DNA of 64,000 bases. Source: Candidatus Dormibacteria bacterium (lineage in GTDB: Bacteria > Chloroflexota > Dormibacteria > Aeolococcales > Aeolococcaceae). The stretch's first letter is position 1. Every line of letters starts with the position of its first letter. The DNA lies in contig JBOHUD010000023.1 of the NCBI GenBank assembly GCA_050734155.1, forward strand, positions 15,726-79,725. Direction: 5' to 3'. The position numbers and the translations under genes are program-made. Of this stretch, positions 5,083 through 49,979 are shown in pieces. Below the pieces are notes generated by a model, which saw nothing but the letters and a program-made list of their open reading frames with translations, had not been told where the DNA came from and did no database searches.

Positions 5083-6321
5083 CTAGGCGTGGGAGACCAC
5101 GGAGTCGGCGATCGCCTTGAAGTCGCCGTCGTCGAGCAGGGCCTTGCGTTCCAGGGAGCGCAGCTTGACCAGCTGCAGGATCTCGAGGCTCTCCTCCTGG
5201 GAGGCGGTCACCCCGATGCGCTCCAGGCCCTCGACGATGTTGTCGATGCCACTGCCCTTGCCGAGCACGATGCGCGGCCCCGTCTGCCCGACCAGCTCGG
5301 GAAGGTAGGGCAGCGACTCGGTGCGGTCCACGTCACGCACGTTGCGCGCCCAGGTGGCGATGATGCCGGACTCGATCTCGAAGGTGCGGCTGCCGGTGAC
5401 CGCCCGGTTGGATGGCTGCTGCACGCCGGAGAGGTCACCCACCAGGCGCGCCAGCCCGGTGAGCGCCTCGGTGCGGATGCCGAGGTCCTTGCCGTACAGG
5501 GTGAGCAGGGTCAGCACCGTCTCCTCCAGCGGGGTGTTGCCGGCGCGCTCGCCGAGGCCGCTGACGGTTACCTGGACGCAGGAGGCGCCGGCCGCCGCGG
5601 CGATAACCGTGTTGGCCACGCCCATCCCGTAGTCCATGTGGAAGTGTGTCTCCAGGGGGACGTTCAAGCGCTCGCGGCTGACCTTGACGAATCGCTCCAC
5701 CGCATGCGGGGTCAGCACGCCGAAGGTGTCGACGAGCCCCAGCGAGTCGACATGACCGTCGCGTGCCACCGTCTCCACCAGGTTGAGATAGTCCTGCACC
5801 GACGCACGGGTGGCGTCGATCGGGAAGAAGGAGACGAGCAGACCGTTGTCGTGCGCGAACTTGGTCGCCTGGATGGACAGCTCGACCGCCCTCTCCACGC
5901 TCCAGCGATAGCCGAGCTCGATGAGGTGCCGGCTCGAGGGGATCTCCATGACGACACCCTGGGCGCCGCAGTCGATCGCCACCTGGACGTCCGCCACCAT
6001 GCAGCGCGAGAAGGCGTAGATGGTCGAGGGCAGGTCGGCGGCGACGATCCGCGAGACGGCCTCGGCGTCGGCGGCGGAGACGGCGGGAAGGCCCGCCTCG
6101 ATGCGGTGGACTCCGGCTTCCGAGAGCGCCTCGGCGATGCGCACCTTGTCGTCGGCTGTGAACTCGACCCCCGCCTGCTGCTCACCATCGCGAAGGGTCA
6201 CGTCATGGACGGTGATCCTCTCCGGGAAGGCGAAGGCCGCGGCGACCTCGGGATCGTGGTTCCACGGGCTCGTGAACCACTGCTCGGTGTGCCAGGGCTC
6301 ATTGGGGCGGACCGACGACAT
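5083..6321 (-). CDS. HMGL-like (pyruvate carboxyltransferase) family enzyme; 2-isopropylmalate / homocitrate / citramalate synthase-like
   Basis: Signature VTLRDGEQ near the N-terminus and a TIM-barrel DRE-TIM fold. The ORF-track 5' extension to 6507 was rejected. Start was set at ATG 6321 (MSSVRPNEPW), checked directly in the sequence. Confidence 0.7.
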   Translation of the reverse strand: MSSVRPNEPWHTEQWFTSPWNHDPEVAAAFAFPERITVHDVTLRDGEQQAGVEFTADDKVRIAEALSEAGVHRIEAGLPAVSAADAEAVSRIVAADLPSTIYAFSRCMVADVQVAIDCGAQGVVMEIPSSRHLIELGYRWSVERAVELSIQATKFAHDNGLLVSFFPIDATRASVQDYLNLVETVARDGHVDSLGLVDTFGVLTPHAVERFVKVSRERLNVPLETHFHMDYGMGVANTVIAAAAGASCVQVTVSGLGERAGNTPLEETVLTLLTLYGKDLGIRTEALTGLARLVGDLSGVQQPSNRAVTGSRTFEIESGIIATWARNVRDVDRTESLPYLPELVGQTGPRIVLGKGSGIDNIVEGLERIGVTASQEESLEILQLVKLRSLERKALLDDGDFKAIADSVVSHA

Positions 6322-6458
6322 GGCTGACCTCCTTGGCGCGAATTCTGCCCGGTCGGTGCCGCCTGCTCGGGCCCCGCGGCTGACCGTCCTGGGCCCACGG
6401 GTATTGCAGGATACATCGTGCACACTGCCGCCAACCACCCCTCTCTGGCCCCAGGTCC

Positions 6459-7256
6459 TCAGGAGCGGCGGATGGCGGGTGGCACCGGGGCTGGTGCGGG
6501 CGCGCACCTCGACGGTCTGGTCGGAGGGCCCGAAGAGCCCGCTGCGGGCGGCGGTTTCCTCGATCCGAACCTTGAGCTGTTCGGCGCGGAGACCTCCGGC
6601 CGTGGTCGGGCTCGGACGCGCGGCCCTGGAGTCGAACCAAATTCAAACAGGCTCAACCGCCCTGCAGGGGAAGCCACGAGGAAGCACGTCTCCTTGGCAC
6701 GGCCCCGCGAGTAATCGCAGGGTTGCGAATCGCTGGCCGAGGTACCCGGGATGGTCGTCACCCGTCCGACCGCTCCAGCGGCCAGCTGGACTAGGGCCAC
6801 CGGCCCGTTCACCGTCGCGTCTGCGACGACCACAGCACCGCCTGGCGTGGCGCTCACACCATGCCGATTCTGGACGTGATGCGTCTCCACCGCTGCAGCG
6901 GTGGACGGCGCGGCGGCGTCGGCCACCCAGACGACGCCGGAGTCCGCGGCGATTGCCACCGCAGGGCGAGAGCCCAGATCGACTTGCAGAGAGATGTGCC
7001 AGCGCTGCTGACCAACAGCCGTTGGCGAACCGGTCGCCGCCGTCGATGGCGGTGTCGGAGAGCTTGCCGAGCACGACGACGCAAAGAGGCAGATGGCCGC
7101 AGCCAATGGCGTCCGAATGATGCGCGTCGGGTGCAGTGCGGCGCCCCTCCGCTGATGCCCAGCAGCACCCAGGGTTAGGGCGCTGCCTCGGAAAATCCGT
7201 CTGAAACGAAATTGAAGTACACCGTGGCGGAGGTCGCCGACGTGAGTTGCAACCAA
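6459..7256 (-). pseudogene. Degraded paralog of the lipoprotein 30850-31953 (lipobox FASSC present; internally shorter; diverged C-terminus; no canonical start near the signal peptide)
   Basis: Central region ETHHVQNRHGVSATPGGAVVVADATVNGPVALVQLAAGAVGRVTTIPGTSASDSQPCDYSR aligns to TYHVQNPRTLIATPSGAIVVADATQNGPVMVEELAAGSAAPVATIPGTAASESRECHYSR of the 30850 gene. Only a TTG at 7256 is in frame upstream of the lipobox. The ORF overlaps the upstream gene by 81 nt. Confidence 0.35.
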
Positions 7257-7789
7257 TCACCGTTGATGTGCGCGATCGTGAGTGCGCCCGAAGTGCTGGG
7301 GTCGGTGAAGATCCCGACAGGAATGAAGTCCACGCCGCAACCGTCCGACCCCACCTGTTCGGTGTACACGTCCACTGCAGGGACCCCCGATGCCGGCGAC
7401 GTCACGCCGGTTGTGCCCGACCAGATCGCATAGGTCGCGCCCCTGGGCAGCGCCGAGCCCATCCAGCTGCTGTCCGCGTAGAAGTTTGCCGCAGATCCAA
7501 AGGGACCACCCTGCCCGCCGTCGTGAATCCGCGTGTCGGGATACGGCAGCGTGACAGCAGGAACGCATGGCGTTGCCGCCGGGATCACCACGCTGGACTC
7601 AGGCGGCTTGGTGGCACGGGGAGCGGCCTGCGCTTCAGCGATCTGTTGTTGCTCGCGGGCGACGAACTGTTGCTTTGGTGTCGACGGCGGGGTCGTTGCG
7701 ACATCTGCCACGGCCAGAACGACACCGATCGCAAGGGCGAAGAGGACGGCCACCGTTGCCGCCACGCGAATTCCAACCCTTCTGGTCAT
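7175..7789 (-). CDS. Membrane-anchored (N-terminal signal-anchor) secreted hypothetical protein; paralog of 30230-30853
   Basis: About 65% identity to the 30230-30853 product (MTRRVGIRVAATVAV... versus MTRKFGIRLAAATVAV...; shared GGQGGPFGSA and SDGCGV motifs). GC is lower than in neighbouring genes. Start set at the internal ATG at 7789, matching the paralog's N-terminus. Confidence 0.6.
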   Translation of the reverse strand: MTRRVGIRVAATVAVLFALAIGVVLAVADVATTPPSTPKQQFVAREQQQIAEAQAAPRATKPPESSVVIPAATPCVPAVTLPYPDTRIHDGGQGGPFGSAANFYADSSWMGSALPRGATYAIWSGTTGVTSPASGVPAVDVYTEQVGSDGCGVDFIPVGIFTDPSTSGALTIAHINGDWLQLTSATSATVYFNFVSDGFSEAAP

Positions 7790-7925
7790 CGATGAGTCCC
7801 ACAGGAATGGGTCATGGCATGGCCTCACCACCCAGTGGGCTGATGCTCGACCATCGTGGACTTGACGCTAGCCCATGATCGGTCACGAGTCAATCTAAAT
7901 TGGATCGGACGCCGCCGGCGCTCCC

Positions 7926-8960
7926 CTACTCCCGCCCGTGGGACAGCCGTTCGCGCTGGGGAACAATGGTGTATCTCGGGTCGCGCGCGGACGCCTGCCC
8001 CGCCTCGAAGATGCCGAAGCGTAGACAGGCGGATCCCGCCAGCAGCGCCGCTCCCGATGCCGCGGCAAGCACGCGGCTGCGCCCACCGAGCACCAGCCCA
8101 CCGATGGCGCCCGCGGCGGTGAGCACCCTGCTGGTGCGCATCAGCCGCCCGGCCCGGCCGGTGCGCAGCGGCTCGGCGACGATACCCATGCCGCTCTCCA
8201 GACGCCGTTCCATGCCCAGCTCGAGCAGCGCTCCACCCGCTGCCAGGAGACGTGCCGGGCGGGCCTGGGCCACGGGGGCGCCGATGATGCCAAACCCACC
8301 CGCGGCCGTCGCCGCCGAGCCCACGAACACAAAGGGCAGCTCGCGCTGCGCCGCGTGCCAGGTCGGGGTGGCGGTGTCGGAGAGCAGCACGGCGGTGTAG
8401 GAGGCCACGCCGGCTCCGAGCGCGGCGGCAGCGATCCCCGCCGGCCGGCCGGTGGCGCCCACCAGGGCACCGAGCGGGCGGGGCAGAGGGAACGGCATCT
8501 CGCTGGCGGCGGCCAGCCCGGCAAGGGGGCCGTACGCCGTGATGATCCAGGTGCCCACCGACATCGGAGAGGTTGGTTTGGCGACGCGCAGCATGTTGAG
8601 GAAGCGCTCCGGTCTGCCGAGGTCGTGGATGAGCGCGGCGAAGCCGGCCCCGATGCCCGCAAGTGCGCCGATGCGGGCCGTGCGACGCAGCGCCGGGCGG
8701 CCGGTCAGGTCCGCGCCCGCCGCGAGCATGGAGGATCCGCCCGCAAGGCCACCGAGGAAGAGGTACGCGGGGATGTCCGCCTTCCACGGCGAGTGCTTGA
8801 CCACCGGGCGGCCGTAGTACGAGGTGAACTCGGCCGGCGGCACCATGGCGCGCTCGCCACCCTCGCGGCGGCCGGTGGACCGGCCGCTGCCGTCCGACCG
8901 AGCATCCCGCGCGGCCGGGCTGCGGGTGGCTTCGCCCGGCGCTCGCGCATCCGGGGTCAT
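7926..8960 (-). CDS. NrfD/PsrC-family integral membrane subunit of formate dehydrogenase (gamma-like)
   Basis: FTSYYGRPVVKHSPWKADIPAYLFLGGLAGG is the NrfD-family N-terminal motif, followed by multiple TM helices. ATG at 8960 overlaps the beta-subunit stop as ATGA. Confidence 0.75.
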   Translation of the reverse strand: MTPDARAPGEATRSPAARDARSDGSGRSTGRREGGERAMVPPAEFTSYYGRPVVKHSPWKADIPAYLFLGGLAGGSSMLAAGADLTGRPALRRTARIGALAGIGAGFAALIHDLGRPERFLNMLRVAKPTSPMSVGTWIITAYGPLAGLAAASEMPFPLPRPLGALVGATGRPAGIAAAALGAGVASYTAVLLSDTATPTWHAAQRELPFVFVGSAATAAGGFGIIGAPVAQARPARLLAAGGALLELGMERRLESGMGIVAEPLRTGRAGRLMRTSRVLTAAGAIGGLVLGGRSRVLAAASGAALLAGSACLRFGIFEAGQASARDPRYTIVPQRERLSHGRE

Positions 8961-9853
8961 CGGCGGCCCGCGAACGCGGCTGCGGCTCCGGCGAGCAACG
9001 TCAGCCCGGCCAGCGCGGCCGTGCGCCACATCTCCGGGAGGTCCCTGGTGGTCACCACGGGGTCAGGGGGCAGGCCGTACACCTCGGGCTCGTCGAGAAG
9101 AAGGAAGAAGGCGCCGGCCCCGCCGATGCCGTCGTCATCCCCGTCCAGGTAGAGCCGGGCGTCGGCGACGCCGTGCTCGTGCAGCGTCTCGACGCGCTCG
9201 CGAGCGCGGACGCGCAACTCGTCGAGGTCGCCGAACTGGATCGATTCGGTGGGGCACGCCTGGGCGCAAGCCGGCACCATGCCCGCTCCCAGCCGGTCGT
9301 TGCAGAGAGTGCATTTCTGCGCCACCCCCGCGTTGTGCACGGTCCCGTCGCCCTCGCGGCGCTCGATGACGCCGAACGGGCAGGCCGGCACGCAGTATCC
9401 GCAGCCGTTGCAGATGTCCGCCTGGACGACGACGGTGCCGAACTCGGTGCGCATCAGGGCGCCGGTCGGGCAGACGTCGAGGCACGCCGCCTGCGTGCAG
9501 TGCTTGCACACGTCTGACGACATCAGCCAGCGGAAGTCCTGCGGCCCGTCGGGGATCGTCGCCGCCCCCACAGCCCCGCCATCACGCACGGGGAGCATGC
9601 GTATCGGCTTGCGCTGCTCGATGAAGGCGACATGCCTCCAGGTGCTGGCTCCAAGGCCGCCGGTGTTGTCGTACGAGGAGGCGAGCATGGTCAGCCCGTC
9701 CTCGGGAACGTGGTTCCATTCCTTGCACGCCACCTCACACGCCTTGCAGCCGATGCACAGCGAGGTGTCGGTGAAGAATCCCTTGCGCGGCGGAGGATCC
9801 TGCCAGCCGGCGCCGCGAGCCGCATCGAGCGGGCCGACGAAGGTGGTGCTCAC
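8957..9853 (-). CDS. fdnH: Formate dehydrogenase beta subunit (4Fe-4S ferredoxin, FdnH/HybA-like) with C-terminal TM anchor
   Basis: Four CxxCxxCxxxCP clusters (CIGCKACEVAC, CKHCTQAACLDVCP, CNGCGYCVPACP, CTLCNDR...CAQACP). C-terminal hydrophobic helix. GTG start at 9853 overlaps the alpha-subunit stop as GTGA. Confidence 0.8.
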   Translation of the reverse strand: MSTTFVGPLDAARGAGWQDPPPRKGFFTDTSLCIGCKACEVACKEWNHVPEDGLTMLASSYDNTGGLGASTWRHVAFIEQRKPIRMLPVRDGGAVGAATIPDGPQDFRWLMSSDVCKHCTQAACLDVCPTGALMRTEFGTVVVQADICNGCGYCVPACPFGVIERREGDGTVHNAGVAQKCTLCNDRLGAGMVPACAQACPTESIQFGDLDELRVRARERVETLHEHGVADARLYLDGDDDGIGGAGAFFLLLDEPEVYGLPPDPVVTTRDLPEMWRTAALAGLTLLAGAAAAFAGRR

Positions 9854-12800
9854 GGCGATGGCTCGGCCGGGGTCACACGGAGGTTGCCGGTGTCCACTGT
9901 GACCTTGGCGCGGCGGCGGTAGCCGTCGACGAAGTCCAGCAGCGCCGCCCCGGTGGGACGGCGACCCGGCTGGATGTCGCAGGTTGCCGCTTTGGACTCC
10001 TGGATGTGCACGTTGGGATCCAGCGACACGCCCAGCAGATCGTTGGCCGAGTCGCCGCTGACCACGGCTTCGCCGCCGACTCCCCAGTGGAAGGGCAGGC
10101 CGACCTGGTGGAGGACCCGCCCCCCGACCCGCAGGGGCACCATGCGGTCCGTGACCAGCACCCGCGCCTCGATGGCGGTGCGGGCGCTGACGATGGTCGC
10201 AAAGCCCCCATTGGTGAGACCACGCTCCCGCGCCAGCTCCGGCGACACCTCGCAGAAGAACTCGGGCTGCAGCTCGGACAGGTAGGGCAGCCAGCGGCTC
10301 ATGCCGCCGGCGGTGTGGTGCTCGGTCAGCCGGTAGGTGGTGACCACGAACGGGTACACATCGCTGCGGGCATCGGGAGGTGACGGGTTGGTGAGGTTCC
10401 CCTGGCGCGGGTAGATCTCGCGGGTGGGGTTGGACTGCTGGCTGTACAGCGGGTTGCGCAGCGGCGACTCCACCGGCTCGTAGTGCGCGGGCAGCGGACC
10501 GTCGAGCAGGCCGCTGGGCGCGTACAGCCACCCCTTGCCGTCCGACTGCATGATGAAGGGGTCGTCGCCGGCGAGGCCCTCCGGACCACCCACTCCCGGT
10601 TCGGGGCGGTACGAGGGCGGCTTGGTGGCCGCGAAATCGGGCACGTCATGGCCGGTCCACCGGCCCTGCTCCTCATCCCACCACACGTACGCCTTGCGCT
10701 GGCTCCAGGGCTTGCCGTCGGGGTCCGCGGAGGCGCGGTTGTAGAGGATGCGCCGGTTCATCGGCCACGACCAGCCCCATTCCGGCGCCACCCACGACTG
10801 CTCCGAGGCGGGCTTGCGTCGCGCCGACTGATTGATCCCTGCGGTGTAGACACCGGTGTAGATCCAGCAGCCGCCGTCGGTCGACCCGTCCGCCTTCATC
10901 TCGGTGAAGGAGCTGAGCATCTGGCCGCCCTTGTCCCCGCTGAGGTGGCTGCCGTTCACCTCCCGCAGCACCGCCTCCGCATCCGGCTCGCCGGCGGTCG
11001 TGACCGGGTAGTCCCAGGTGAGGTTGCGCAGGGCCAGGTCGCGCTCCTCCTGAGATGCCGCCACCCGGGCGCGCAGGGCGCGACCGAGCTCGAAGAAGAA
11101 CTGCAGCTCGGAGCGCGCGTCCCCGGGCGGGTCGACCGCCTTGTCGTGCCACTGCAGCATCCGCTGGGTCTGAGTGAAGCTGCCCTCCTTCTCGGTGTGC
11201 GCCGCGGCCGGGAGGAAGAACACCTCGGTGGCGATGTCCTGGGTGCGCAGCTCGCCGGTGGCTATCTCGGGACCGTCCTTCCAGAACGTCGCCGACTCGA
11301 TCATGTTGAAGTCGCGCACCACCAGCCACTTGAGATGCGCCATGCCGAGCCGCTGCAGCCTGCCATTCGACGAGCCGACGGCGGGGTTCTGGCCGAGCAG
11401 GAAGTAGCCCTCGACCTTGTCGTCGAGCATGTCCATGACCGTGCGGTAGGTGCCGTGGTCACCGTTGATCCGGGGAAGCCAGTCGAAGCCGAAGTCATTG
11501 TCCTGGGTGGCCGCGTCCCCGAACCATGACTTGAGCAGGCTGACCATGTAGGCGTCGGCCGCGGTCCAGAATCCCTTCTGCTGCGGGCGCGAGATGCTCT
11601 CCAGGTAGCCGCGCAGCCCCTGCTCCTCCCCCGCCCAGGGCATCGGCAGGTAGCCGGGGAGGAGGTCGAACAGGGTGGGGATGTCGGTGGAGCCCTGGAT
11701 GCTGGCGTGCCCTCGCAGGGCCATGATGCCGCCACCGGGGCGACCCATGTTGCCGAGCAGGAGCTGGATGATCGCCGCGCAGCGGATGTACTGCACACCG
11801 ACGGAGTGCTGGGTCCAGCCCACCGAGTACACGAAGGCGGTGGTCCGCTCCCGGCCGCTGTTCTCGGTGACCGCTCTGCAGACCTGGGCGAACGCCTCGG
11901 GTGCGACACCGCAGACCTGTTCCACGAGCTCGGGCGTGTAGCGAGCATAGTGCCGCTTGAGGATCTGGAAGACGCAGCGCGGATCCTGCAGCGTCTCGTC
12001 GCGGTGCACCAGGCTGTCCTCGAGCTGAGCCCCCTTGCCGCCCAGCGCATGCCCCGGCTCGTGGACCGGCTGGCCACCGCGCTTGCCGTCGACGGCCGCG
12101 CGCTTGCGCACCCGCCGGCCGCCCACCGCTGGGGCCTCCTCCACGTCGAGGTACTGCCAGCTGCTGGAGTCGTAGGTCCCCGTGGTGTGGTCGTACCCGG
12201 AGAACAGGCCGTCGAGCTCATCGACGTCCTTGAAGTCATCACCCACCAGCGTCGCCGCGTTGGTGTAGCTCACCACGTACTCTCGGAAGTACGTCTCGGT
12301 GCTGAGGATGTGGTTGATGATCGCGCCGAGGAAGACGATGTCACTGCCGGCGCGCAGCGGCACGTGGAGATCGGCCAGCGCCGAGGTGCGGGTGAAGCGG
12401 GGATCGACGTGGATGATCGTCGCCCCCCGTGCCTTGGCCTCCATGACCCACTGGAAGCCGACGGGATGGCACTCCGCCATGTTCGATCCCTGGATGACGA
12501 TGCAGTCGGAGTTCTGCAGGTCCTGCTGGAAGGTGGTCGCGCCGCCCCTACCGAACGAGGTCCCCAGACTGGGGACAGTGGAGCTGTGTCAAATACGGGC
12601 CTGGTTCTCCACCTGCACCACTCCGGCGGCGGTGAAGAGCTTCTTGATCAGGTAGTTCTCTTCGTTGTCGAGCGTGGCTCCTCCGAGGCTGGCGACCGCC
12701 ATCGTCCGGCGCAGCGGATGCCCCATCTCGTCCGCCTCCTGCCAGGTGCGTGCGCGGCTGTCGATCAGGCGGTCGGCGATCATCTCCACGGCGCGGTGCA

Positions 12801-13158
12801 GGGGCAGGTCCTCCCAGTCGGTCGCGTGGGGCGGCCGATATCTCACCGTGGTGACCCGCCTCGGGTTGTTCACCAGCTGCTCGCTGGCCGCGCCCTTGGG
12901 GCAGAGCCGTCCCCGCGAGACGGGCGAATCCGGGTTGCCCTCGATCTGCACGACCTTCTCATCCTTCACGTACACCCGCTGGCCGCAGCCCACCGCGCAG
13001 TAGGGACAGACGCTGTGCACCACCCGGTCAGCGGTGAGGGTGCGCGGCGTCAGCGCCGCGGTCGCGCCGGATTGCACCGCCTCGCCACGGCCCAGGCCAT
13101 CCGGTCCGGTCAGCTGGCGCAGCACCGGCCAGGAGCGAAGTCTGCTGAACGCGTCCAT
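9850..13158 (-). CDS. fdnG: Formate dehydrogenase alpha subunit, selenocysteine-containing (FdnG/FdoG-like molybdopterin oxidoreductase); in-frame UGA (Sec) at 12591-12589
   Basis: ORFs 12589-13158 and 9850-12480 are one reading frame split by TGA. Translation across the TGA gives ...VENQARI-U-HSSTVPSLGTSFGRGGATTFQQDLQNSDCIVIQGSNMAECHPVGFQW, collinear with E. coli FdnG ...ENQARV-U-HGPTVASLAPTFGRGAMTNHW...AAEAHPVGFRW. The N-terminal CPYCAVGCG 4Fe-4S motif is present. selA, selB, selC and selD lie adjacent. Confidence 0.85.
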
Positions 13159-13242
13159 GGTCCGCTCTCCCGCACTCGCCGATGATCAGCTGCTCTGTCG
13201 CTTGGATTTTCTCACGCCGGTCCCCCGGCCGACCTCGACGGC

Positions 13243-13869
13243 TCAGACGGGGATCTTGAAGCCGGCCGAGAAGTTCAGGGTGACGCCGAACATGAGGTAC
13301 ATGAGCCAGAGCCCGGTGGCGATGTGGAAGAAGCCCAGCAAGCGCTCACCCAGGCCGACGGGGCCCAGCGTGAGGCTGGCCGCGATGTCGCTGAGGTAGA
13401 TCAGCGTGAGGCCAAGGAAGAGGCCGCCGACGCCGGCATCGCCGACATCGAAGAACACGATCATCCCCAGGATGGAGATGAGGGCGAACGCCACCGCCAT
13501 GAAGCCGTTCGGCTGCGGCGAGGCCCCGCGCAGCCGGTTGAACCCGATGGCAAACCAGTGCACGCCGTAGGCGGTGAAGGCGAGGGCGGCCATGTACAGG
13601 GGGTGGTCGCTGAAGGAGTGGAACCAGGCCAGACCGACGAACAGATAGGTCCCGGCCAGGAACTGCAGGAACCCGGGCATCCAGATGCCCCACACGCCGG
13701 TCGACAGGTCGACGCGCTCATTGCGGGCTGGGAACTTGAACAGCTCCTGGGGGCCGTAGATGAGGTAGCCGGTGCCCAGGCCGAAGAAGCCGAGGGCCAG
13801 GGGCGGGAACGCCGAGGTGGGGAGGCTGACGACGCTGCTGAGCAACACGGGTATCCTCCAGACAGCCAT
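13243..13869 (-). CDS. AceTr (GPR1/FUN34/YaaH, SatP-like) family membrane transporter; possibly carboxylate/formate uptake
   Basis: Six predicted TM helices. FPPLALGFFGLG and AFTAYGVHWFA resemble the SatP motifs NPAPLGLMGFG and AFTSYGSFWL. Sits between fdhD and fdnG on the same strand. Confidence 0.5.
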   Translation of the reverse strand: MAVWRIPVLLSSVVSLPTSAFPPLALGFFGLGTGYLIYGPQELFKFPARNERVDLSTGVWGIWMPGFLQFLAGTYLFVGLAWFHSFSDHPLYMAALAFTAYGVHWFAIGFNRLRGASPQPNGFMAVAFALISILGMIVFFDVGDAGVGGLFLGLTLIYLSDIAASLTLGPVGLGERLLGFFHIATGLWLMYLMFGVTLNFSAGFKIPV

Positions 13870-13953
13870 TACGTGTCATCGCGATTGTACGGCGAGCCCG
13901 GTGCCATCGGGGGAAACGGTCGCCGCACTCGCCATCACACCGAGTGCGTGCGG

Positions 13954-14799
13954 TCACCCCGCGGCCGCCTCCTCCACGCCCGCTCCGACCGCGACGACTC
14001 GCTGCTGGGCCGTGTAGACGTTCATCTGCTCGCCGCGCAGGAAGCCCACCAGCGTCATCCCGCTCTCCTCGGCGAGCTGCACGGCGAGGCTTGACGGCGC
14101 CGACACAGCGGCCAGCAGCGGGATGCCGGCCATCAGAGCCTTCTGGGTCAGCTCGAAGCTGGCTCGCCCCGACGCCAGGATGATGTGGGAGCGCAGCGGC
14201 AGCCGGCGCTGGGTCGCGGCCCAGCCGATCACCTTGTCGAACGCGTTGTGACGGCCGACATCCTCGCGCACGCAGACCAGCGTCCCACCTCCATCGAACA
14301 GTGCCGCGGCGTGCAGTCCGCCGGTGCGGGCGAACATCTTCTGAGCGCCCCGCAGCGTGCCCGGCAGCGCGGCGAGCAATGCTGGAGAGACGACCAGCGG
14401 ATCGCCCGAGACGTCGTGGCGCGAGCGCGTCCGCACCGCGTCGATGCTCGCCTTTCCGCAGACACCGCAGGACGAGGTCATGAAGAAGTTGCGCTGCCCC
14501 ACCGCCGCTGATCCCGCCGCCACCAGACGGACCTCGACGACGTTGAAGCCGCCCCCCGCATCGGCCTGGTGGGGGCACATCCGCATCGAGGCGATGTCGC
14601 CGGCGCCCTCGATGATGCCCTCGGTGACGAGGAAGCCGGCGGCGAGGTCGAAATCGGCGCCGGGGGTGCGCATGGTCACGGTGAGCGGCACACCGTCGAG
14701 CCGTATCTCCAGTGGCTCCTCGGCGCTGAGCTCGTCGGTGATCCAGCGCGCGTCGCCGGCCACGCCCACCTGTCGCACTCGCCGGCGCAGCCCCGTCAT
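13954..14799 (-). CDS. fdhD: Formate dehydrogenase accessory sulfurtransferase FdhD
   Basis: 281 aa with FdhD family motifs (SSCGVCGK catalytic Cys loop, GRHNAFDK). Lies upstream of the FDH structural genes. Confidence 0.8.
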   Translation of the reverse strand: MTGLRRRVRQVGVAGDARWITDELSAEEPLEIRLDGVPLTVTMRTPGADFDLAAGFLVTEGIIEGAGDIASMRMCPHQADAGGGFNVVEVRLVAAGSAAVGQRNFFMTSSCGVCGKASIDAVRTRSRHDVSGDPLVVSPALLAALPGTLRGAQKMFARTGGLHAAALFDGGGTLVCVREDVGRHNAFDKVIGWAATQRRLPLRSHIILASGRASFELTQKALMAGIPLLAAVSAPSSLAVQLAEESGMTLVGFLRGEQMNVYTAQQRVVAVGAGVEEAAAG

Positions 14800-14841
14800 G
14801 GTCGCGTCCGGCCCCCCACCGAGGTGATCATCGGCCGCATC

Positions 14842-15828
14842 TCAGCGGACCTCGATCGAGTGCTCGCGGCGGGGCACCAGCTCGCCGATGACCTGCGCTC
14901 TGTCGAGCTGTCCCGCGATGAGCAGGCCGCCACTGGTCTGCGCATCGGCGAGCAGCAGCCGTTCCGACTCGGCGGTGGCGGCACGCCCGCGCCACTCCAC
15001 GTGGGCGTCGACCCAGGCCAGGTTGCGACGGGTGCCGCCGCTGACGAAGCCGTCGGCAAGCGCCTCGCGGGCGCCCTCGAGGTAGGGCACCGAGTCGGCA
15101 TCGATGATCGCGGTGACGTTGCTGGCGCGGGCCAGCTTGAAGAGGTGCCCGAGCAGCCCGAACCCGGTGACGTCGGTCGCGCAGCGCACGCCCGCCGCCA
15201 CCGCCGCCTCCGACGCGTCCCGGTTGAGCCGGGTCATGGTTGCCACCGCCTCGGGAAAGACCTCGCCCGTCTGCTTGTGACGGCTGTTGAGCACCCCGAT
15301 GCCGAGCGGCTTGGTGAGCGAGAGCGGCGTACCGGCCATGCCCAGGTCGATGCGCAGGAGGCGGTCGGCGGGGGCGACGCCGCTCACCGCCATGCCGTAC
15401 TTCGGTTCAGGGTCGTCGACGCTGTGACCGCCGGCGACCGGGCAGTCGGCGGCCGTGGCCACCTCGAGACCACCGCGCAGGACCTCGGCGGCGAGCTCGA
15501 GCGGCAGCACCTCGCGCGGCCAGCAGAGCAGGTTGACGGCCAGCACCGGACGCCCGCCCATGGCGTAGATGTCGGACAGGGCGTTGGCGGCGGCGATGCG
15601 CCCCCAGTCGTACGCGTCGTCGACGACCGGGGTGAAGAAGTCGACCGTGCTCAGCAGTGCGGTGCCGCCGTCGCCGAGGCGGACCGCGGCCGCGTCGTCG
15701 CCGCCGTCCAGCCCCACCAGCAGCGAGCCATGCGGTGTCCCGACCAGCCCGGCCACGATCTGCTCCAGCTCACCGGGCGGGATCTTGCAGGCGCAACCGC
15801 CGCCGTGCGCGTAACCCGTGAGACGCAT
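14842..15828 (-). CDS. selD: Selenide, water dikinase (selenophosphate synthetase) SelD, Cys-type
   Basis: MRLTGYAHGGGCACKIPPGEL matches E. coli SelD [23 protein letters not shown]. PurM-like fold. Start at ATG 15828, checked in the sequence. Confidence 0.8.
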   Translation of the reverse strand: MRLTGYAHGGGCACKIPPGELEQIVAGLVGTPHGSLLVGLDGGDDAAAVRLGDGGTALLSTVDFFTPVVDDAYDWGRIAAANALSDIYAMGGRPVLAVNLLCWPREVLPLELAAEVLRGGLEVATAADCPVAGGHSVDDPEPKYGMAVSGVAPADRLLRIDLGMAGTPLSLTKPLGIGVLNSRHKQTGEVFPEAVATMTRLNRDASEAAVAAGVRCATDVTGFGLLGHLFKLARASNVTAIIDADSVPYLEGAREALADGFVSGGTRRNLAWVDAHVEWRGRAATAESERLLLADAQTSGGLLIAGQLDRAQVIGELVPRREHSIEVR

Positions 15829-15900
15829 CGCAGCGAGTGTTGCACAGGCGCGCGACCAGCCATCGCCGCGGCCTCCGGCCGCGCCGGTACCCTGTGCGGC

Positions 15901-15995
15901 GGAGGTGTGTGGGCGCCTGGTGGCCCTCCTGATCTTCAAAATCAGTGTGGCCGGGCATCTCGGCCAGGCGGGTTCGATTCCCGTCCGCCTCCGCC
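15901..15995 (+). tRNA. selC: tRNA-Sec (selC), anticodon TCA
   Basis: Acceptor stem ggaggtg pairs with cgcctcc, discriminator G. Anticodon arm ctgat-cTTCAaaa-atcag carries TCA. Long variable arm tggccg-ggcatct-cggcca. T arm gcggg-TTCGATT-cccgt. Length about 93 nt. Located between selD and selA (selA starts at 16014). Confidence 0.75.
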
Positions 15996-16013
15996 CGGCG
16001 AGGTGCCAGCATC

Positions 16014-28305: not shown

Positions 28306-28734
28306 ATGGCATGGCAGCGGCAGTGGCACAAGCACCCGGGAGTGCGATCCGGTGACCAGCTCTCGGTGGGCGAACGTGCCGCCGACCGAATGCGCAACGG
28401 CATGGGCTCGTGGCCGTTCGTGTTCGCCTTCTTCGGGGTCATGATCCTGTGGGCGGTCATCAACGGGGTCCTCCACGTCGGCGGCGGATCGGGCTTCGAC
28501 CCCTACCCCTTCATCCTTCTCAACCTGTTTCTCTCGATGTTGGCGGGCGTCCAGGCAGCCGCCCTCCTGATCGCGGCCAAACGATCCGACGGCATCTCCT
28601 CAGAGATCGCCGTGCACACGGAGACGAACACCGAGTTCATCAAGACGCTGTTGCAGCAGAACACGGAGCTGACGCAGGCGGTCGAGGCACTGACCAAGGA
28701 GGTGCACCAGCGGGTCTGCGCCGCCAGCCCGTAG
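28306..28734 (+). CDS. DUF1003-family membrane protein
   Basis: Two TM helices (WPFVFAFFGVMILWAVINGV; FILLNLFLSMLAGVQAAALLIA) followed by a coiled-coil C-terminus, typical of DUF1003. Confidence 0.5.
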   Translation: MAWQRQWHKHPGVRSGDQLSVGERAADRMRNGMGSWPFVFAFFGVMILWAVINGVLHVGGGSGFDPYPFILLNLFLSMLAGVQAAALLIAAKRSDGISSEIAVHTETNTEFIKTLLQQNTELTQAVEALTKEVHQRVCAASP

Positions 28735-28739
28735 GCCGA

Positions 28740-29110: not shown

Positions 29111-29303
29111 CTGGCCGCCTGGCGCCGAAACATTGGATGCATCCGCCCGGCTCCCAATTCGATTGACTCGAAACGGGCCCAGTGCTACCCTCCAGTCCAC
29201 GATGGCTTCGGGCCGTCAGCGTTTGGGTCGTCCGGGGAGGTCGTCCCGTGCCACCCGGCAACTCGTGCGCCGGGCGCGGCTTTGCTAGTTACTTGCAGGT
29301 CCC

Positions 29304-30230
29304 TTGATCTTTGCCGCCGAGGGTGCTCAGATCGCTCACGCCACCCAATCCCTGCCGCGAACCGTCGGCGCTTGGTCGTGGTACATCACCCACGGAAATG
29401 ACTCGACTGGCGTGGCCTACCAACTCGGCTGCAACGAGGGGCACGCGAGGGCGGGTGACCTAGGCAACAGCGAAATCATCCTAGATTTCGGTTCGCAGGT
29501 GCCAAACCAAAGCGAGACGCGGCTGCCGTTCCACGATGGCTTCGCCAGCTACTCGCTTGTCGAGAGCATGTCAGAGCAGTTTGCCCGTGGCTATTTCGAG
29601 TGCACCGGGAGCGACACTACGACCGTGCTCAAGCTTGCAGTGGGCACTACCAACGACAACGTCGACGGGGAGTACAACAGCACAACAACCGCTTACAATG
29701 GCGGATATGCGTGGTCTCAGGTAGCTCTGATTGTGAGAAATTGGGTCGCCTCGAGCCATTACACCGCTCAGGTTGACGTCGGTGCCGCCAGCGATATGGA
29801 GACTGAATTCGGTGGTCAGTCCGCCACATTGGCCTTCACGAATGGTTACTCTTCAAACAGCGGCGCTCCGTTCTACCTTGACTTCGGTGATGCTGGCGGG
29901 TGTCCCATCAATTCCTACACCGGTGGGAATGGCTACGGCTGCAACAGCGGCTGGAATCAGTACGGAGTGTGGTACAAGAGTTGGGGTCCCGCTCCGGCGT
30001 TTCCGCTCCCGGAGATCTACAATCAGCCACTGGCAAACCAGTGGTGGACCATCTCGCGCTACGGCTACTACGAGCGTAATGCCGCGCTTCACTTTGAGGG
30101 TCCTCTAGACGACTACGATCGTGACCACAGCACCTTCACGCCGACACAAGCATGGAATGCCTTGTCCAATGAGATTGGGTCCGATTCCCACACAAACTAT
30201 TCAATGACGTATTCCTGTGAGATCCACTGA
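29304..30230 (+). CDS. Hypothetical protein rich in G/N/Y/S/T/W, encoded in low-GC DNA; no signal peptide; TTG start
   Basis: GC visibly lower than flanks. The ORF starts at TTG straight after an in-frame TAG. TGATG-coupled to the downstream gene. No recognisable domain; composition resembles a secreted carbohydrate-binding or hydrolase-like domain. Confidence 0.45.
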   Translation: MIFAAEGAQIAHATQSLPRTVGAWSWYITHGNDSTGVAYQLGCNEGHARAGDLGNSEIILDFGSQVPNQSETRLPFHDGFASYSLVESMSEQFARGYFECTGSDTTTVLKLAVGTTNDNVDGEYNSTTTAYNGGYAWSQVALIVRNWVASSHYTAQVDVGAASDMETEFGGQSATLAFTNGYSSNSGAPFYLDFGDAGGCPINSYTGGNGYGCNSGWNQYGVWYKSWGPAPAFPLPEIYNQPLANQWWTISRYGYYERNAALHFEGPLDDYDRDHSTFTPTQAWNALSNEIGSDSHTNYSMTYSCEIH

Positions 30231-30853
30231 TGACCCGGAAGTTTGGAATTCGCTTGGCAGCAGCCACTGTCGCTGTGGCCGCCGCCACGATCGGCGTCGT
30301 CCTGGGCGTGGCAGACGCGCCGAATGGTCCGGCATTGTCGCCGAAGCAGCAGTTTGTTGCCCGGGAGCGGCAGCAGATCGCTGATGCCCAAGCGGCCCCC
30401 CGGGCCTCGAAGCCGCCCGAGACGAGCGTTGTCATCCCCCCTCCGACGCCGTGCGTCCCACCCATCACCCTGCCATTCCCGGACCGCCTGATTCACGTCG
30501 GAGGCCAGGGCGGCCCATTCGGGTCCGCTTCGAACTTCTACGCCGTCAGCAGCTGGGTGGGCTCGGTGTCGTCTACCGGCCCGACGTATGCGATCTGGTC
30601 TGGACTCAGCGGCATAACATCGAGCACGCCGGGGCTCTCTGCGGTGGACGTGTACATTGAGCAGCTCGCCTCGGATGGTTGCGGGGTGAACTTCATTCCG
30701 GTTGGAGTCTTCACCGATTCAGGCACGCGTGGCTTGCTGACGATCACGCGCATCGATGGCGAGTGGTTGCAGCTGACCTCGTCAGCGTCCACCTCGGTGT
30801 ATTTCAACTTGGTCCGCGACGTGTTCTCGATCGGCGTGCCCACTCCTGGATGA
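30230..30853 (+). CDS. Membrane-anchored secreted hypothetical protein; paralog of 7175-7789
   Basis: N-terminal signal anchor followed by a Pro/Ala-rich linker. About 65% identity with the 7175-7789 product. Start overlaps the upstream stop (TGATG); its stop overlaps the downstream ATG (ATGA). Confidence 0.65.
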   Translation: MTRKFGIRLAAATVAVAAATIGVVLGVADAPNGPALSPKQQFVARERQQIADAQAAPRASKPPETSVVIPPPTPCVPPITLPFPDRLIHVGGQGGPFGSASNFYAVSSWVGSVSSTGPTYAIWSGLSGITSSTPGLSAVDVYIEQLASDGCGVNFIPVGVFTDSGTRGLLTITRIDGEWLQLTSSASTSVYFNLVRDVFSIGVPTPG

Positions 30854-31953
30854 GTCGCGGTGTTGACCAGGGTGCTGCACGGCCGCGCTCGCGCATCCCC
30901 CAGACGCTCCTCGTGGCGGGCATGTGCGTCATCGCGTCGGCGTGCTCGGCCGCTCCTCCAGCATCGCCATCGGTGAGCGTAACCCCCTCGCCTGCTTCTG
31001 ATGCCGAGCAGTGGCACGTCACTGAACAGATCAGCCTGGGGCCGGTTGTCGCCACGGCCCTCGCCGAATCCCGGGGGGGGGTGTGGGTGACGATCGCCGC
31101 CGACCCAGAATCAGCATCCGGCAAGGGTGAGGCCCGACGGTATGACGAGACGACAGGTCGAGAGTTGGGCTCGTGGTCGATCGGCGGCGACCCAGCCAGC
31201 CTGAGCGTTGCTCCTGGGACTGTATGGGTCGCGAATGGCCCCGGGGACGGGAGATCATTGATTGCCGACGCGAACACTGTCGTCCAATTGGACTCGTTCA
31301 CAGGCGCTGTGGAGCGTACCTACCATGTGCAGAACCCGCGTACCTTGATCGCAACTCCCAGCGGTGCCATCGTCGTTGCTGACGCAACTCAGAACGGCCC
31401 GGTGATGGTCGAGGAACTGGCGGCCGGATCGGCGGCTCCGGTGGCGACCATCCCAGGCACGGCCGCCAGCGAATCGCGAGAGTGTCACTACTCGCGACCG
31501 GATGCGCCGGGCACCTGTTTGCTCGTGAGTACGGAGGCAGGAGGATTGGTCCTGTATGTGAGCGAGTCGGCTGGCGCGCGACCAGTCGGAAAGATCCCGG
31601 CGACTGGCAATGCTCGCCTCGCATGCGGGCCGGCCTCCTGCTATGTGGCGGTTGACAATGCAAACGACGGCGGAGTCTTTCGCGTAGCCGCCCCCGGAAG
31701 CCCAATTGCGGGGCCGTGGGGGGGGCGGTTCCCAAATAGCATTTGCGCGATGTCAGATCAGGTGTGGACGCTGACCAACCAACAGGGAGCGACCCAACCC
31801 GCCTTCCTGCAGGCGTTCGATGGCGCGACTGGTCGGCTTCGAACTCCTGCGGTCAGCCTCCCCCCTGGCGACGCCCACCTCCTGACGGCCTCCGCCTCCG
31901 GCGCGCTGTGGGTGATCGTAGGACAATCGCTGGTCAAGGTCACCCACGTCTGA
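30850..31953 (+). CDS. Lipoprotein (lipobox IASAC), beta-propeller-like repeats; paralog of the degraded 6459-7256 gene
   Basis: Signal peptide plus lipobox LLVAGMCVIASAC-S. Repeated V-x-V-A-x-G-P / WV-x-V strands. ATGA-coupled to the upstream gene. Confidence 0.65.
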   Translation: MSRGVDQGAARPRSRIPQTLLVAGMCVIASACSAAPPASPSVSVTPSPASDAEQWHVTEQISLGPVVATALAESRGGVWVTIAADPESASGKGEARRYDETTGRELGSWSIGGDPASLSVAPGTVWVANGPGDGRSLIADANTVVQLDSFTGAVERTYHVQNPRTLIATPSGAIVVADATQNGPVMVEELAAGSAAPVATIPGTAASESRECHYSRPDAPGTCLLVSTEAGGLVLYVSESAGARPVGKIPATGNARLACGPASCYVAVDNANDGGVFRVAAPGSPIAGPWGGRFPNSICAMSDQVWTLTNQQGATQPAFLQAFDGATGRLRTPAVSLPPGDAHLLTASASGALWVIVGQSLVKVTHV

Positions 31954-32204
31954 CCACAGGTCGCGCGGCGTCTCCGGAACTCAGGGCACTCGACACCACC
32001 ATCCGGGTGCCCTCGGTCTCACTTCGCCAGGCACGGCCGCCGGTACACGCGGCGGTGCGGCCGTGCTATGAAATCCGGGTGAGCCAGGCCGTCGGCGCTC
32101 CACCACCCGGCGACCAACGCCACCCGGCGAGCGCGCCACCAGAGGTTGCCGGTGGCGCACCGGCCGCTCCAGCGCCGGCTGCGGTCCCGGCCACGCGCAC
32201 CAGC

Positions 32205-32450: not shown

Positions 32451-32543
32451 GGGAGCGGCCGCCGACCGCTTTGGCGGATCGCGCCGGAGCTCGCTGCGGG
32501 AACCACCACACTGTGACCGGTGTAGCGGGTTTGACATCGACCC

Positions 32544-49939: not shown

Positions 49940-49979
49940 GGCTGCGCTGCCTCCGAGGATGCCCTGGCGACCGTGCCGA

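What the first reader, a model, noticed from the sequence alone, without database searches (positions are those of the whole stretch)
6459..7789. Copy 1 of a duplicated, lower-GC two-gene module (membrane-anchored protein plus lipoprotein) at the 3' end of the FDH operon; the lipoprotein copy is decaying
Genes 7175-7789 and 6459-7256 (minus strand) are clear paralogs of 30230-30853 and 30850-31953 (plus strand, 23 kb away). The small proteins are about 65% identical. Lipoprotein core segments align (…HVQN…AIVVADATxNGPV…AAG…TIPGT.AS.S..C.YSR…C.LV). Both loci have visibly lower GC than the roughly 72% background. In copy 1 the lipoprotein gene lacks a canonical start near its signal peptide (only a TTG 50 codons upstream, overlapping the partner gene by 81 nt), is missing about 70 internal residues relative to copy 2, and has an unrelated C-terminus running into the HMGL-like gene region. 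All of this is consistent with pseudogenisation. No conserved domain is recognisable in either gene product.
Basis: seen in the sequence. Interest (0 to 1): 0.65.

Follow-up and report, generated by a model that had tools for sequence, protein, structure and literature searches.

The report
Decayed copy of a three-gene envelope cassette
The flagged two genes are the worn-down remnant of a horizontally acquired three-gene cassette, whose intact version lies 23 kb away, and only the small membrane-anchored protein survives intact in both copies.

Summary
B1 (7175-7789, minus) and B2 (30230-30853) are 66% identical (E 2e-81). The lipoprotein ORFs align at E 8e-26. Both loci have atypical codon GC (GC3 0.70-0.77, against 0.85-0.93 for neighbouring genes).

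The real unit has three genes, A-B-C:
- A is a secreted TIM-barrel-like protein (29202-30230).
- B is the small membrane-anchored protein.
- C is the lipoprotein.

Gene B directly follows gene A in all nine other A loci examined (about seven distinct). C occurs only in some Dormibacteria.

Copy 1 is a decayed cassette:
- It keeps the shared upstream block, the start codon of A and about the last nine codons of A. About 960 bp of A are deleted.
- B1 is intact (dN/dS 0.19).
- C1 has no usable start, lacks 54 internal residues and about 130 C-terminal residues, and is not annotated as a protein.

In copy 2 of this strain, A carries a nonsense codon that a sister strain lacks.

None of 80 related FDH loci carries the cassette.

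An A-like domain is fused to a peptidoglycan amidase on Bacillus plasmids. This suggests that A acts on the cell wall. B may be a protective partner that is kept after A is lost, but this is inferred, not shown.

The parts
7851..7904 (-). Upstream block shared with copy 2. It holds a promoter-like motif (-35 TTGACT 7893-7888, 17-nt spacer, -10 TAGCGT 7870-7865) and the vestigial start codon of gene A (ATG 7854-7852).
   Evidence: blastn aligns 7904..7851 with 29152..29205 at 74% over 54 nt, E 2e-4. The matching ATG in copy 2 is the true A start in a sister strain. The built-in sigma-70 scan does not report the site, because the -10 hexamer matches only 3 of 6 positions.
7786..7854 (-). Vestige of gene A. 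The start codon plus 9 codons runs to a TGA. The last roughly 9 codons of A survive as a mini-ORF (7815-7786) whose stop overlaps the B1 start (ATGA).
   Evidence: One search aligns copy 1 ATGACCCATTCCTGTGGGACTCATCGATGACC with copy 2 ATGACGTATTCCTGTGAGATCCACTGATGACC. Only about 36 nt in copy 1 lie where copy 2 has about 1000 nt.
7175..7789 (-). B1, an intact 204-aa protein with an N-terminal signal anchor. NCBI annotates it with a later start as ACRENL_02955 / MGH7721782.1.
   Evidence: (dN/dS 0.19 against B2). The sequence is identical in the sister assembly.
6645..7172 (-). C1, the degraded lipoprotein gene. The signal peptide and lipobox (LFASSC) are kept, but there is no ATG, GTG or TTG start. 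54 internal residues are deleted in frame, and homology ends at about 6645.
   Evidence: No protein record exists for it.
6459..6644 (-). Unrelated 61-codon read-through tail of the C1 ORF. It is probably not coding.
   Evidence: GC2 0.84 exceeds GC3 0.69. It has no homology to C2, L005 or L006.
29152..29205 (+). Upstream block of copy 2, with -35 TTGACT 29163-29168 and -10 TACCCT 29186-29191. It runs into the A start codon.
29202..30230 (+). Gene A, a secreted TIM-barrel-like protein. In this genome an in-frame TAG (29286-29288) interrupts the signal peptide. NCBI calls a 308-aa product from the TTG at 29304 (ACRENL_03065).
   Evidence: (pLDDT 93.4). The sister strain has TGC at this codon.
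30230..30853 (+). B2, 207 aa. Its start overlaps the stop of A by 1 nt.
30850..31953 (+). C2, a full-length 367-aa lipoprotein. Its start overlaps the B2 stop (ATGA).

Best explanation
**Shown.**
- The flagged region is the decayed copy of a three-gene cassette for proteins that work outside the cytoplasm. The gene order is A-B-C, with overlapping stop and start codons.
- An almost intact version lies at 29202-31953.
- Copy 1 retains the upstream promoter-like block, the first and last few codons of A, an intact B gene, and a C gene that has lost its start codon, 54 internal residues and its C-terminal third.
- The cassette is accessory DNA with foreign codon composition. It is not part of the FDH operon.

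**Inferred.**
- A is a secreted enzyme-like TIM barrel that acts on the cell wall, with invariant D164-x-E166, GDAGGC and PEIY motifs.
- B is a membrane-anchored partner that faces outward.
- The most likely role of B is to control or neutralise A at the producer's own surface, like an immunity protein. That would explain why B stays intact when A is deleted (copy 1) or knocked out by a nonsense codon (copy 2 in this strain).
- C is an optional lipoprotein accessory found in one Dormibacteria sub-lineage, probably built of repeats of about 45 residues (propeller-like).

**My probabilities.** Anatomy and decay history about 0.9. A acts on the cell wall about 0.6. B is immunity-like about 0.3.
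For: **Anatomy.** Searches show collinear homology from the upstream block to mid-C, with about 960 bp of A missing in copy 1.

**Ancestral state.**
- The order A-B-C occurs in L005 and in L006/L007. A-B occurs in L003/L004, L008, L009 and L010.
- For L008-L010, B-family membership was confirmed with an HMM (E 3e-63, 6e-28 and 9e-19).

**B under constraint.** dN/dS between B1 and B2 is 0.19 at dS 1.17.

**B without A, but no free-standing A without B.**
- Orphan B genes occur in copy 1, in L001 (beside tRNA-Thr and a transposase fragment) and in L002.
- No free-standing A lacks a B among about seven distinct A loci.

**Nonsense codon in A.** The window reads TAG at 29286-29288. Sister assembly GCA_974337385.1, 99.85% identical over the 6 kb that includes this codon, reads TGC. 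Seven of the 9 differences in those 6 kb cluster at 29213-29312.

**Foreign composition.** GC3 is 0.69-0.77 in the cassette and 0.85-0.93 in the host genes. The same contrast is seen in L005 (0.64-0.69 against 0.82-0.87).

**Mobile contexts elsewhere.** IS3 and IS110 transposases flank the cassette in L006/L007. A TrwC relaxase and SSB lie beside it in L010.

**Not part of FDH.** The cassette is absent from all 80 related FDH loci.

**Cell-wall link for A.**
- The model is confident (pLDDT 93.4) and has alternating beta-alpha elements.
- The weak best fold matches are glycoside hydrolases.
- 36 of 42 homologues with a scorable N-terminal region have a hydrophobic signal-type stretch there, and distant members have a lipobox.
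- An A-like domain (29% identical, E 1e-29, all motifs kept) is the C-terminal half of an Amidase_3 (PF01520, E 1e-49) protein on Bacillus plasmids.
Against: - There is no biochemical evidence for any of the three proteins.
- A matches no family in Pfam, NCBIfam, PHROGs or PADLOC, and no PDB sequence. Fold matches are weak (TM below 0.5, E at least 2e-3).
- In the Bacillus fusion the A-like domain could be a wall-binding module and not a catalytic one.
- The B model is poor (pLDDT 60) and its fold search was uninformative.
- The low dN/dS of B1 could have built up while A1 was still present. C1 shows no faster substitution than C2 relative to the outgroups, so the decay of copy 1 may be recent. 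In that case B1 may simply not have been hit yet.
- No integrase, transposase or repeat boundary was found next to either copy in this window.
- The promoter-like motif falls below the threshold of the consensus scan.
- The TAG in A could be an assembly error. An independent Logan contig (L093) does share it, but that contig might derive from the same reads.
Confidence: 0.55

Rival explanations
1. A two-gene B+C module was duplicated within this genome, one copy sits at the 3' end of the FDH operon as part of it, and its lipoprotein gene is becoming a pseudogene.
For: The paralogy and the degradation of C1 are real. Copy 1 lies directly downstream of the NrfD-like FDH subunit and on the same strand.
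Against: - The conserved unit is A-B(-C). Copy 1 retains the A start codon, the tail of A and the upstream block.
- B-C without A is seen nowhere else.
- None of 80 related FDH loci carries the module.
- GC3 has not moved towards the host value despite dS of about 1.
Confidence: 0.08
2. B is an obligate structural partner of A, such as an anchor, activator or regulator of a self-directed wall-remodelling hydrolase. It has no role without A. On this view B1 is a relic that has not yet collected disabling mutations, and the orphan B genes elsewhere are relics too.
For: - A and B are tightly linked, with overlapping stop and start codons.
- ECF sigma genes lie near the cassette in the window, L003 and L008, which would fit envelope-stress control.
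- C1 shows no rate acceleration, so the decay of copy 1 may be recent.
Against: - Three independent orphan B genes all have intact reading frames (copy 1, L001, L002). No free-standing A lacks B.
- In copy 2 it is again A, not B, that carries the inactivating mutation.
- Distribution is patchy, composition is foreign, and the cassette sits in mobile contexts. None of this is what a housekeeping wall-remodelling system would show.
Confidence: 0.27
3. Copy 1 is still a working two-gene unit. C1 is translated from a non-canonical start, such as CTG 7172 or CTG 7136 (the latter preceded by GGAGGGG), into a shortened lipoprotein that has taken on a reduced or new role.
For: - The 54-residue deletion is in frame.
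- There is no stop codon across 173 homologous codons.
- The signal peptide and lipobox are intact.
- dN/dS between C1 and C2 is 0.39-0.43, no higher than between the full-length homologues (0.47). C1 is no more distant from the outgroups than C2 is.
Against: - No ATG, GTG or TTG lies in a usable position.
- Only about three of the roughly seven repeat units I count by eye in C2 remain (internal repeats are only weakly supported), so a closed repeat fold is unlikely.
- The 61-residue tail has non-coding composition.
- Stop codons are rare by chance in 69%-GC DNA, at about 0.02 per codon.
- No protein is recorded for this ORF.
Confidence: 0.1

Closest known systems
Secreted cell-wall hydrolase plus cognate immunity protein, with 'orphan immunity' genes. 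Examples are the lysozyme-like or peptidoglycan-hydrolase effectors and their immunity proteins discussed in PMC9796082 and PMC10539506.
   Same: The enzyme gene comes first and a small outward-facing partner gene follows, tightly linked. The partner is found alone in several genomes, while no free-standing enzyme lacks its partner. The cassette sits in mobile or foreign-composition contexts. Closely related strains differ sharply at the locus.
   Different: There is no secretion-system context (no T6SS, T7SS or LXG); A has an ordinary signal peptide. No toxicity or protection has been shown. All three protein families lack any described model. The resemblance is one of logic only.
Modular peptidoglycan hydrolases with an Amidase_3 domain (PF01520). 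The specific example is FJR70_31980 on Bacillus tropicus plasmid CP041076.1.
   Same: The C-terminal 280 residues of that protein are homologous to A (29% identical, E 1e-29). The D-M-E, GDAxGC, CNxGW and PLPEIY motifs are conserved.
   Different: The window's A has no amidase domain and is secreted on its own. The Bacillus locus has no B homologue. It is unknown whether the A-like domain there is catalytic or wall-binding.
Rv2525c-like / GH25-like glycoside-hydrolase-like TIM barrels. These are Tat-exported putative peptidoglycan hydrolases of Actinobacteria (10.1101/2025.07.02.662783).
   Same: Both are exported barrel-type proteins of about 300 residues in monoderm soil lineages, with a suspected role in the cell wall. 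The D-x-E motif at the end of a beta-strand recalls the GH25 catalytic motif. That comparison is from my own knowledge and was not tested.
   Different: No Pfam match to either family was found for A or for any of its 46 homologues. A twin-arginine motif is present in only 4 of 42 homologues. GH25 structures are not among the top fold matches.
Beta-propeller lipoproteins (NHL, YVTN and lactonase-type repeats).
   Same: C2 has about seven recurring hydrophobic 'VWV/VVV' strand motifs spaced about 45 residues apart, and a lipobox. There are weak hits to the NHL repeat (E 0.088) and to a 6-phosphogluconolactonase propeller (4qrj, E 0.11).
   Different: None of these hits is significant. No structure was predicted for C.

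Membership tests
Any described protein family (Pfam-A, NCBIfam, PHROGs, PADLOC) for A, B or C | A score above the curated threshold of a family model | tested here: not met
   There are no hits above threshold for A, B1, B2, C1 or C2. The same holds for the 47 A-family members and for 10 longer B-family members.
FDH operon component | Conserved position next to FDH genes in related genomes | tested here: not met
   None of 80 loci with a NrfD-like subunit (56-71% identical) contains A, B or C by tblastn or by the B-family HMM. 48 of these loci have at least 1.5 kb of downstream sequence.
Pseudogene (C1) | Loss of the start codon and truncation relative to full-length homologues | tested here: met
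   No ATG, GTG or TTG is usable near the signal peptide. The 54 internal and about 130 C-terminal residues present in C2, L005 and L006 are absent. There is no NCBI protein between MGH7721781 and MGH7721782.
Pseudogene (C1) | Frameshifts, internal stops or relaxed selection (raised dN/dS, faster rate than the paralogue) | tested here: not met
   The frame is preserved and there is no stop in the homologous part. dN/dS is 0.39-0.43. Distance to the outgroups equals that of C2.
Bacterial lipoprotein (C) | A signal peptide ending in a lipobox with an invariant Cys | tested here: met
   Read directly from the sequences: C2 VIASAC, C1 LFASSC, L006 LAAAC, L005 VLSGC. No dedicated predictor was available.
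Beta-propeller repeat proteins (NHL, YVTN, lactonase) for C | Significant match to a repeat model, or a predicted closed propeller | tested here: inconclusive
   NHL E 0.088. 4qrj lactonase E 0.11. Internal repeats offset by about 46 residues at P of about 0.01.
Glycoside hydrolase (clan GH-A, GH25 or Rv2525c-like) for A | Sequence membership, or a close fold match with catalytic residues superposed | tested here: inconclusive
Toxin-immunity (enzyme-inhibitor) gene pair | Tight linkage, with the immunity gene found as an orphan while the toxin gene is never without its immunity gene | tested here: met
   All nine other A loci (about seven distinct) have B immediately downstream. Three B genes lack A: copy 1, L001 and L002. 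The sample is small.
Toxin-immunity (enzyme-inhibitor) gene pair | The first product is toxic or lytic, and the second neutralises it by direct binding | not testable with these tools
   This needs expression, lysis and pull-down experiments, or a complex prediction with paired deep alignments.
Anti-sigma factor (considered for B because ECF sigma genes lie nearby) | A cytoplasmic N-terminal anti-sigma domain of about 80 residues before the membrane helix | tested here: not met
   B has only about 8 residues before its hydrophobic segment and no anti-sigma Pfam hit.
Cargo of a mobile element | Flanking integrase, transposase, relaxase or repeats | tested here: inconclusive
   The feature is met in other loci: IS3 and IS110 in L006/L007, TrwC and SSB in L010, and tRNA-Thr with a transposase fragment in L001. 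It is not met in this window. There are no such genes or flanking repeats near either copy, only foreign GC3.

The most novel reading that the evidence does not exclude
A-B is an undescribed type of secreted bacteriolytic enzyme with a membrane-anchored immunity protein. It circulates on mobile DNA among soil monoderm lineages (Dormibacterota, Chloroflexota, Actinomycetota). B1 at 7175-7789 is an orphan immunity gene, kept to protect against A enzymes made by neighbouring cells after the cell's own A was lost. The sharp strain-to-strain divergence at the 5' end of A reflects an ongoing arms race.
Probability: 0.25. Interest if true: 0.65.

Novelty: new variant of a known kind. Interest (0 to 1): 0.4.

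Why it matters
The decay of a horizontally acquired cassette is ordinary genome evolution. The cassette itself is less ordinary. It consists of three protein families with no described model. Its A-B core is conserved across several little-studied soil phyla, and A can now be linked to peptidoglycan hydrolases through a domain fusion. If A is a wall-degrading enzyme and B its protective partner, this would be a first handle on interbacterial antagonism, or on autolysin control, in Dormibacterota. That phylum is abundant in soils, has almost no experimental biology, and mostly lacks the known competition systems. The locus also offers a clean natural experiment for testing what B does without A, because three states are available: A lost, A knocked out, and A intact in a sister strain.

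Tried and rejected
- **Family libraries.** Pfam, NCBIfam, PHROGs and PADLOC scans of A, B and C found nothing.
- **PDB sequence searches.** Profiles of A, B and C gave only chance-level hits.
- **Structure of B.** With four sequences the model reached only pLDDT 60, and its PDB fold search matched odd propeller blades at E above 0.1, which I treat as meaningless.
- **Tat export of A.** Rejected, because only 4 of 42 homologues have an RRx## motif.
- **Anti-sigma role for B.** Rejected, because B has no cytoplasmic domain.
- **Riboswitch or other RNA** in 6100-8100 or 28600-32600. There are no Rfam hits below E 0.3.
- **Flanking repeats or IS remnants** around either copy in the window. None was found.
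- **Microhomology at the deletion junctions.** It cannot be recovered at 70% identity.
- **Phage and plasmid origin.** B is absent from viral contigs and plasmids, and A is absent from phages. The viral scan with the A alignment failed for lack of a conserved stretch.
- **Copy 2 in other assemblies.** An exact look-up of C2, made to see copy 2 elsewhere, found no record.
Full report
**1. The observation**

The two small ORFs, B1 (7175-7789, minus strand) and B2 (30230-30853, plus strand), are 66% identical over their whole length with no gaps (E 2e-81). The neighbouring lipoprotein ORFs align at 38% identity with one 64-column gap (E 8e-26).

At DNA level, 7815..7044 matches 30204..30972 at 70% identity, and 6856..6706 matches 31346..31496. 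This is the strongest repeat in the 64-kb window.

The window averages 70.3% GC. Copy 1 is 66.1% and copy 2 is 62.9%, and copy 2 includes the lowest-GC stretch of the window. Third-codon-position GC separates the loci more clearly. It is 0.70-0.77 in these genes and 0.85-0.93 in neighbouring genes.

None of the products matches Pfam, NCBIfam, PHROGs or PADLOC. Two small corrections apply: the background GC is 70%, not 72%, and the internal gap is 54-64 residues, not about 70.

**2. The unit has three genes**

The genome is a Candidatus Dormibacteria MAG. Directly upstream of B2 lies another low-GC ORF (29304-30230), which I call A.

Relatives of A were found in 46 other protein clusters, all unannotated. 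Those that carry a source name come from Dormibacteria, an Anaerolineales MAG and an Actinomycetota MAG.

In all nine other A loci I could inspect, a B-family gene follows A immediately:
- L003 and L004, which are near-identical to each other;
- L005;
- L006 and L007, also near-identical to each other;
- L008, L009 and L010, where B membership was confirmed with a family HMM at E 3e-63, 9e-19 and 6e-28 respectively.

The lipoprotein C is present only in L005 and L006/L007. There it is full length and 32-35% identical to C2 over 312 residues.

In the window the A stop overlaps the B2 start by 1 nt, and the B2 stop overlaps the C2 start as ATGA. The evolutionary unit is therefore A-B, with C as an optional third gene. 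It is not B-C.

**3. What copy 1 is**

A 54-nt block upstream of B1 (7904..7851) matches a block upstream of A in copy 2 (29152..29205). The block contains TTGACT, a 17-nt spacer, then TAGCGT (copy 1) or TACCCT (copy 2), followed by AGTCCACGATGG. A similar TTGACC-18-TACCGT motif precedes A in L005.

The ATG in this block is the real start of A. In a sister assembly an uninterrupted signal peptide runs from it: MASGRQRLGRPGRSARATRALVRRARLCCLLAGPLIFAAEGAQIAHA.

Copy 1 also keeps the last nine or so codons of A, read as MTHSCGTHR* against MTYSCEIH* in copy 2. Between these two remnants copy 1 has about 36 nt where copy 2 has about 1000 nt. Copy 1 is thus a cassette from which about 960 bp of A have been deleted.

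**4. State of C1**

Compared with C2 and the two outgroups, C1 has the following defects:
- It lacks a 54-residue segment that all three full-length proteins share.
- It lacks everything after the fourth of the roughly seven repeat units I count by eye in C2, about 130 residues.
- The 61 codons that follow are unrelated and have non-coding-like composition.
- No ATG, GTG or TTG lies near the signal peptide. The codon near the position of the C2 ATG is CTG or GGT (and my own codon alignment of the two 5' ends).
- NCBI protein accessions run consecutively through the oxidoreductase (…780), HMGL (…781), B1 (…782) and NrfD (…783), so C1 has no protein record.

Some features argue against long-standing decay. 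The deletion is in frame and there are no stops. dN/dS against C2 (0.39-0.43) is no higher than between the intact homologues (0.47). C1 is no further from the outgroups than C2 is. The inactivating events are therefore probably recent relative to the divergence of the two copies.

**5. State of B1 and of copy 2**

B1 is intact. It evolves under constraint relative to B2 (dN/dS 0.19 at dS 1.17). It is identical in a second assembly that is 99.87% identical to the window.

In copy 2 it is A that is damaged in this genome. An in-frame TAG at 29286-29288 sits in the hydrophobic core of the signal peptide. The sister assembly GCA_974337385.1 reads TGC there. An independent Logan contig shares the TAG.

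Seven of the nine differences across 6 kb between the two strains fall within 29213-29312, and both of the other assemblies break at 29333-29361. The cassette therefore appears to be a strain-variable spot. Only its first 150 nt could be compared.

**6. Not an FDH component; probably foreign**

The FDH context is real. The neighbourhood contains a molybdopterin subunit, an Fe-S subunit, an NrfD-like subunit, SelA, SelB and tRNA-Sec.

However, none of 80 metagenomic loci encoding a 56-71% identical NrfD-like subunit contains A, B or C, and none contains the HMGL gene. Of these loci, 48 have at least 1.5 kb of downstream sequence.

The cassette has the same low GC3 in another high-GC Dormibacteria genome (0.64-0.69 against flanks of 0.82-0.87 in L005). 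It matches its surroundings in the lower-GC loci L003, L008 and L009, and its IS neighbours in L006.

Elsewhere it sits beside IS3 and IS110 transposases (L006/L007) and directly after a TrwC relaxase and SSB (L010). An orphan B lies beside tRNA-Thr and a transposase fragment (L001).

The two window copies differ by dS of about 1.0-1.2, yet neither has drifted towards host GC3. I therefore cannot say whether they arose by duplication in place or by two separate acquisitions, and I rate these about equally likely.

**7. What the proteins may do**

*Protein A.*
- A folds with high confidence (pLDDT 93.4, pTM 0.90) into alternating beta-alpha elements.
- Its best structural matches are GH5 mannanases and cellulases, other TIM-barrel enzymes and phage glycosyl hydrolases. 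All are weak, with TM below 0.5.
- Invariant residues across the 47 aligned sequences (the window's A and its 46 homologues) are D164 and E166 (DMETEFGG), G195, A197, G199 and C200 (GDAGGC), C213, W217, P236, I238 and W247. E237 is nearly invariant. D164 ends a predicted strand and E166 lies just past it. From general knowledge, that is where barrel enzymes carry catalytic residues.
- 36 of 42 homologues with a scorable N-terminal region have a hydrophobic signal-type stretch there, and distant members have a lipobox.
- The most informative result is a domain fusion. On Bacillus tropicus and B. thuringiensis plasmids a 540-residue protein combines an N-terminal N-acetylmuramoyl-L-alanine amidase domain (PF01520, E 1e-49) with a C-terminal A-like domain (29% identical, E 1e-29, all motifs conserved).
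- I infer that A acts on, or binds, the cell wall.

*Protein B.*
- B has about 8 N-terminal residues, one hydrophobic segment, a KQQ-rich helix, a Pro/Ala linker and a beta-rich domain of about 130 residues.
- An exhaustive profile search found 111 representative relatives at E of 1e-3 or better, and 30 at 1e-10 or better. Nearly all are about 190-210 residues with the same layout. The ten longer members I scanned match no Pfam family.

*Protein C.*
- C has a lipobox and repeats of about 45 residues. It has only sub-threshold similarity to NHL and lactonase propellers.

**8. Mechanism I commit to, and its rivals**

No free-standing A was seen without B in about seven distinct loci. B occurs without A three times: in copy 1, L001 and L002. 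In this genome both A copies are inactivated while both B copies are intact.

This asymmetry is what one expects if A is potentially harmful to its producer and B protects against it. It parallels the behaviour of orphan immunity genes of wall-degrading effectors (PMC9796082, PMC10539506).

I therefore favour the following model: A is a secreted wall-acting enzyme, and B is its membrane-anchored, outward-facing protective partner. I give the B part only about 0.3.

The main rival, at about 0.27, is that B is an obligate anchor or regulator of a self-directed hydrolase, and that B1 is simply a young relic. A third possibility is that C1 is still made from a non-canonical start as a shortened lipoprotein. 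I rate that unlikely (0.1).

**9. Verdict**

The pseudogene reading of C1 is supported. The description of the unit as a two-gene module, its link to the FDH operon and the simple duplication story are not supported.

The event itself is ordinary decay of an accessory cassette. The cassette, however, defines three undescribed protein families with a conserved A-B core and a testable link to the cell wall. I rate the interest as moderate.

Noticed in passing
window 29213-29361; L092 5908-6056; L093 end: Between two 99.85%-identical assemblies, 7 of the 9 differences in 6 kb cluster in the first 100 nt of gene A. Both other assemblies (GCA_974337385.1 and a Logan contig) break within 30 nt of each other just inside A. 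This suggests a strain-variable or recombining cassette.
   Followed up: partly
L094 5266-6888 (Bacillus tropicus plasmid CP041076.1, FJR70_31980): A 540-aa protein annotated as an amidase is really two domains: Amidase_3 plus a C-terminal homologue of gene A. It is flanked by IS5 transposases and lies next to a second amidase (SH3_3 + Amidase_3) and an Iota-toxin Ib gene.
   Followed up: partly
L010 1390-6579: An A-B pair sits immediately downstream of a 1123-aa TrwC-type relaxase and near an SSB gene. This places it on a putative conjugative or mobilisable element in a 115-kb metagenomic contig.
   Followed up: no
L008 3259-6209: The gene order is A-B-A, and the second A contains the first A's entire sequence. 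This is either a tandem duplication or an assembly artefact. An ECF sigma gene and a BNR-repeat protein lie divergently upstream, as in L003.
   Followed up: no
window 47296-50368 (minus strand): Three adjacent paralogous genes (378, 346 and 426 aa) each carry a YbjQ_1 (PF01906) domain. 47416-48060 and 49145-49804 are 66% identical at DNA level.
   Followed up: partly
window 9850-19084: A full selenocysteine set lies next to the FDH genes: tRNA-Sec (15901-15995), SelA (15945-17297) and SelB (17288-19084). The tRNA-Sec overlaps the predicted SelA start. I did not check whether the FDH catalytic subunit has an in-frame TGA.
   Followed up: no
window 31743-33877: Directly downstream of copy 2 lie a LapA-domain membrane protein and an ECF sigma factor (32544-33107), followed by a probable anti-sigma gene. 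ECF sigma genes also flank the cassette in L003 and L008. This could be regulation or coincidence.
   Followed up: no
L003 and L004 (MAG MFD09603.bin.2.40, contigs of 1,422,614 and 1,423,087 bp): The two A-B loci of this MAG are almost identical (B dS 0.012) and lie on two contigs of nearly equal length. This looks like two haplotypes of one region and not a true duplication.
   Followed up: no
window 6322-6644: About 320 nt lie between the end of C1 homology and the HMGL start. They have no recognisable gene, RNA family or repeat. In 6440-6560 the highest GC (0.85-0.90 in the windows starting at 6440 and 6500) falls at the codon position that is third in the HMGL frame, which is unexplained.
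   Followed up: partly
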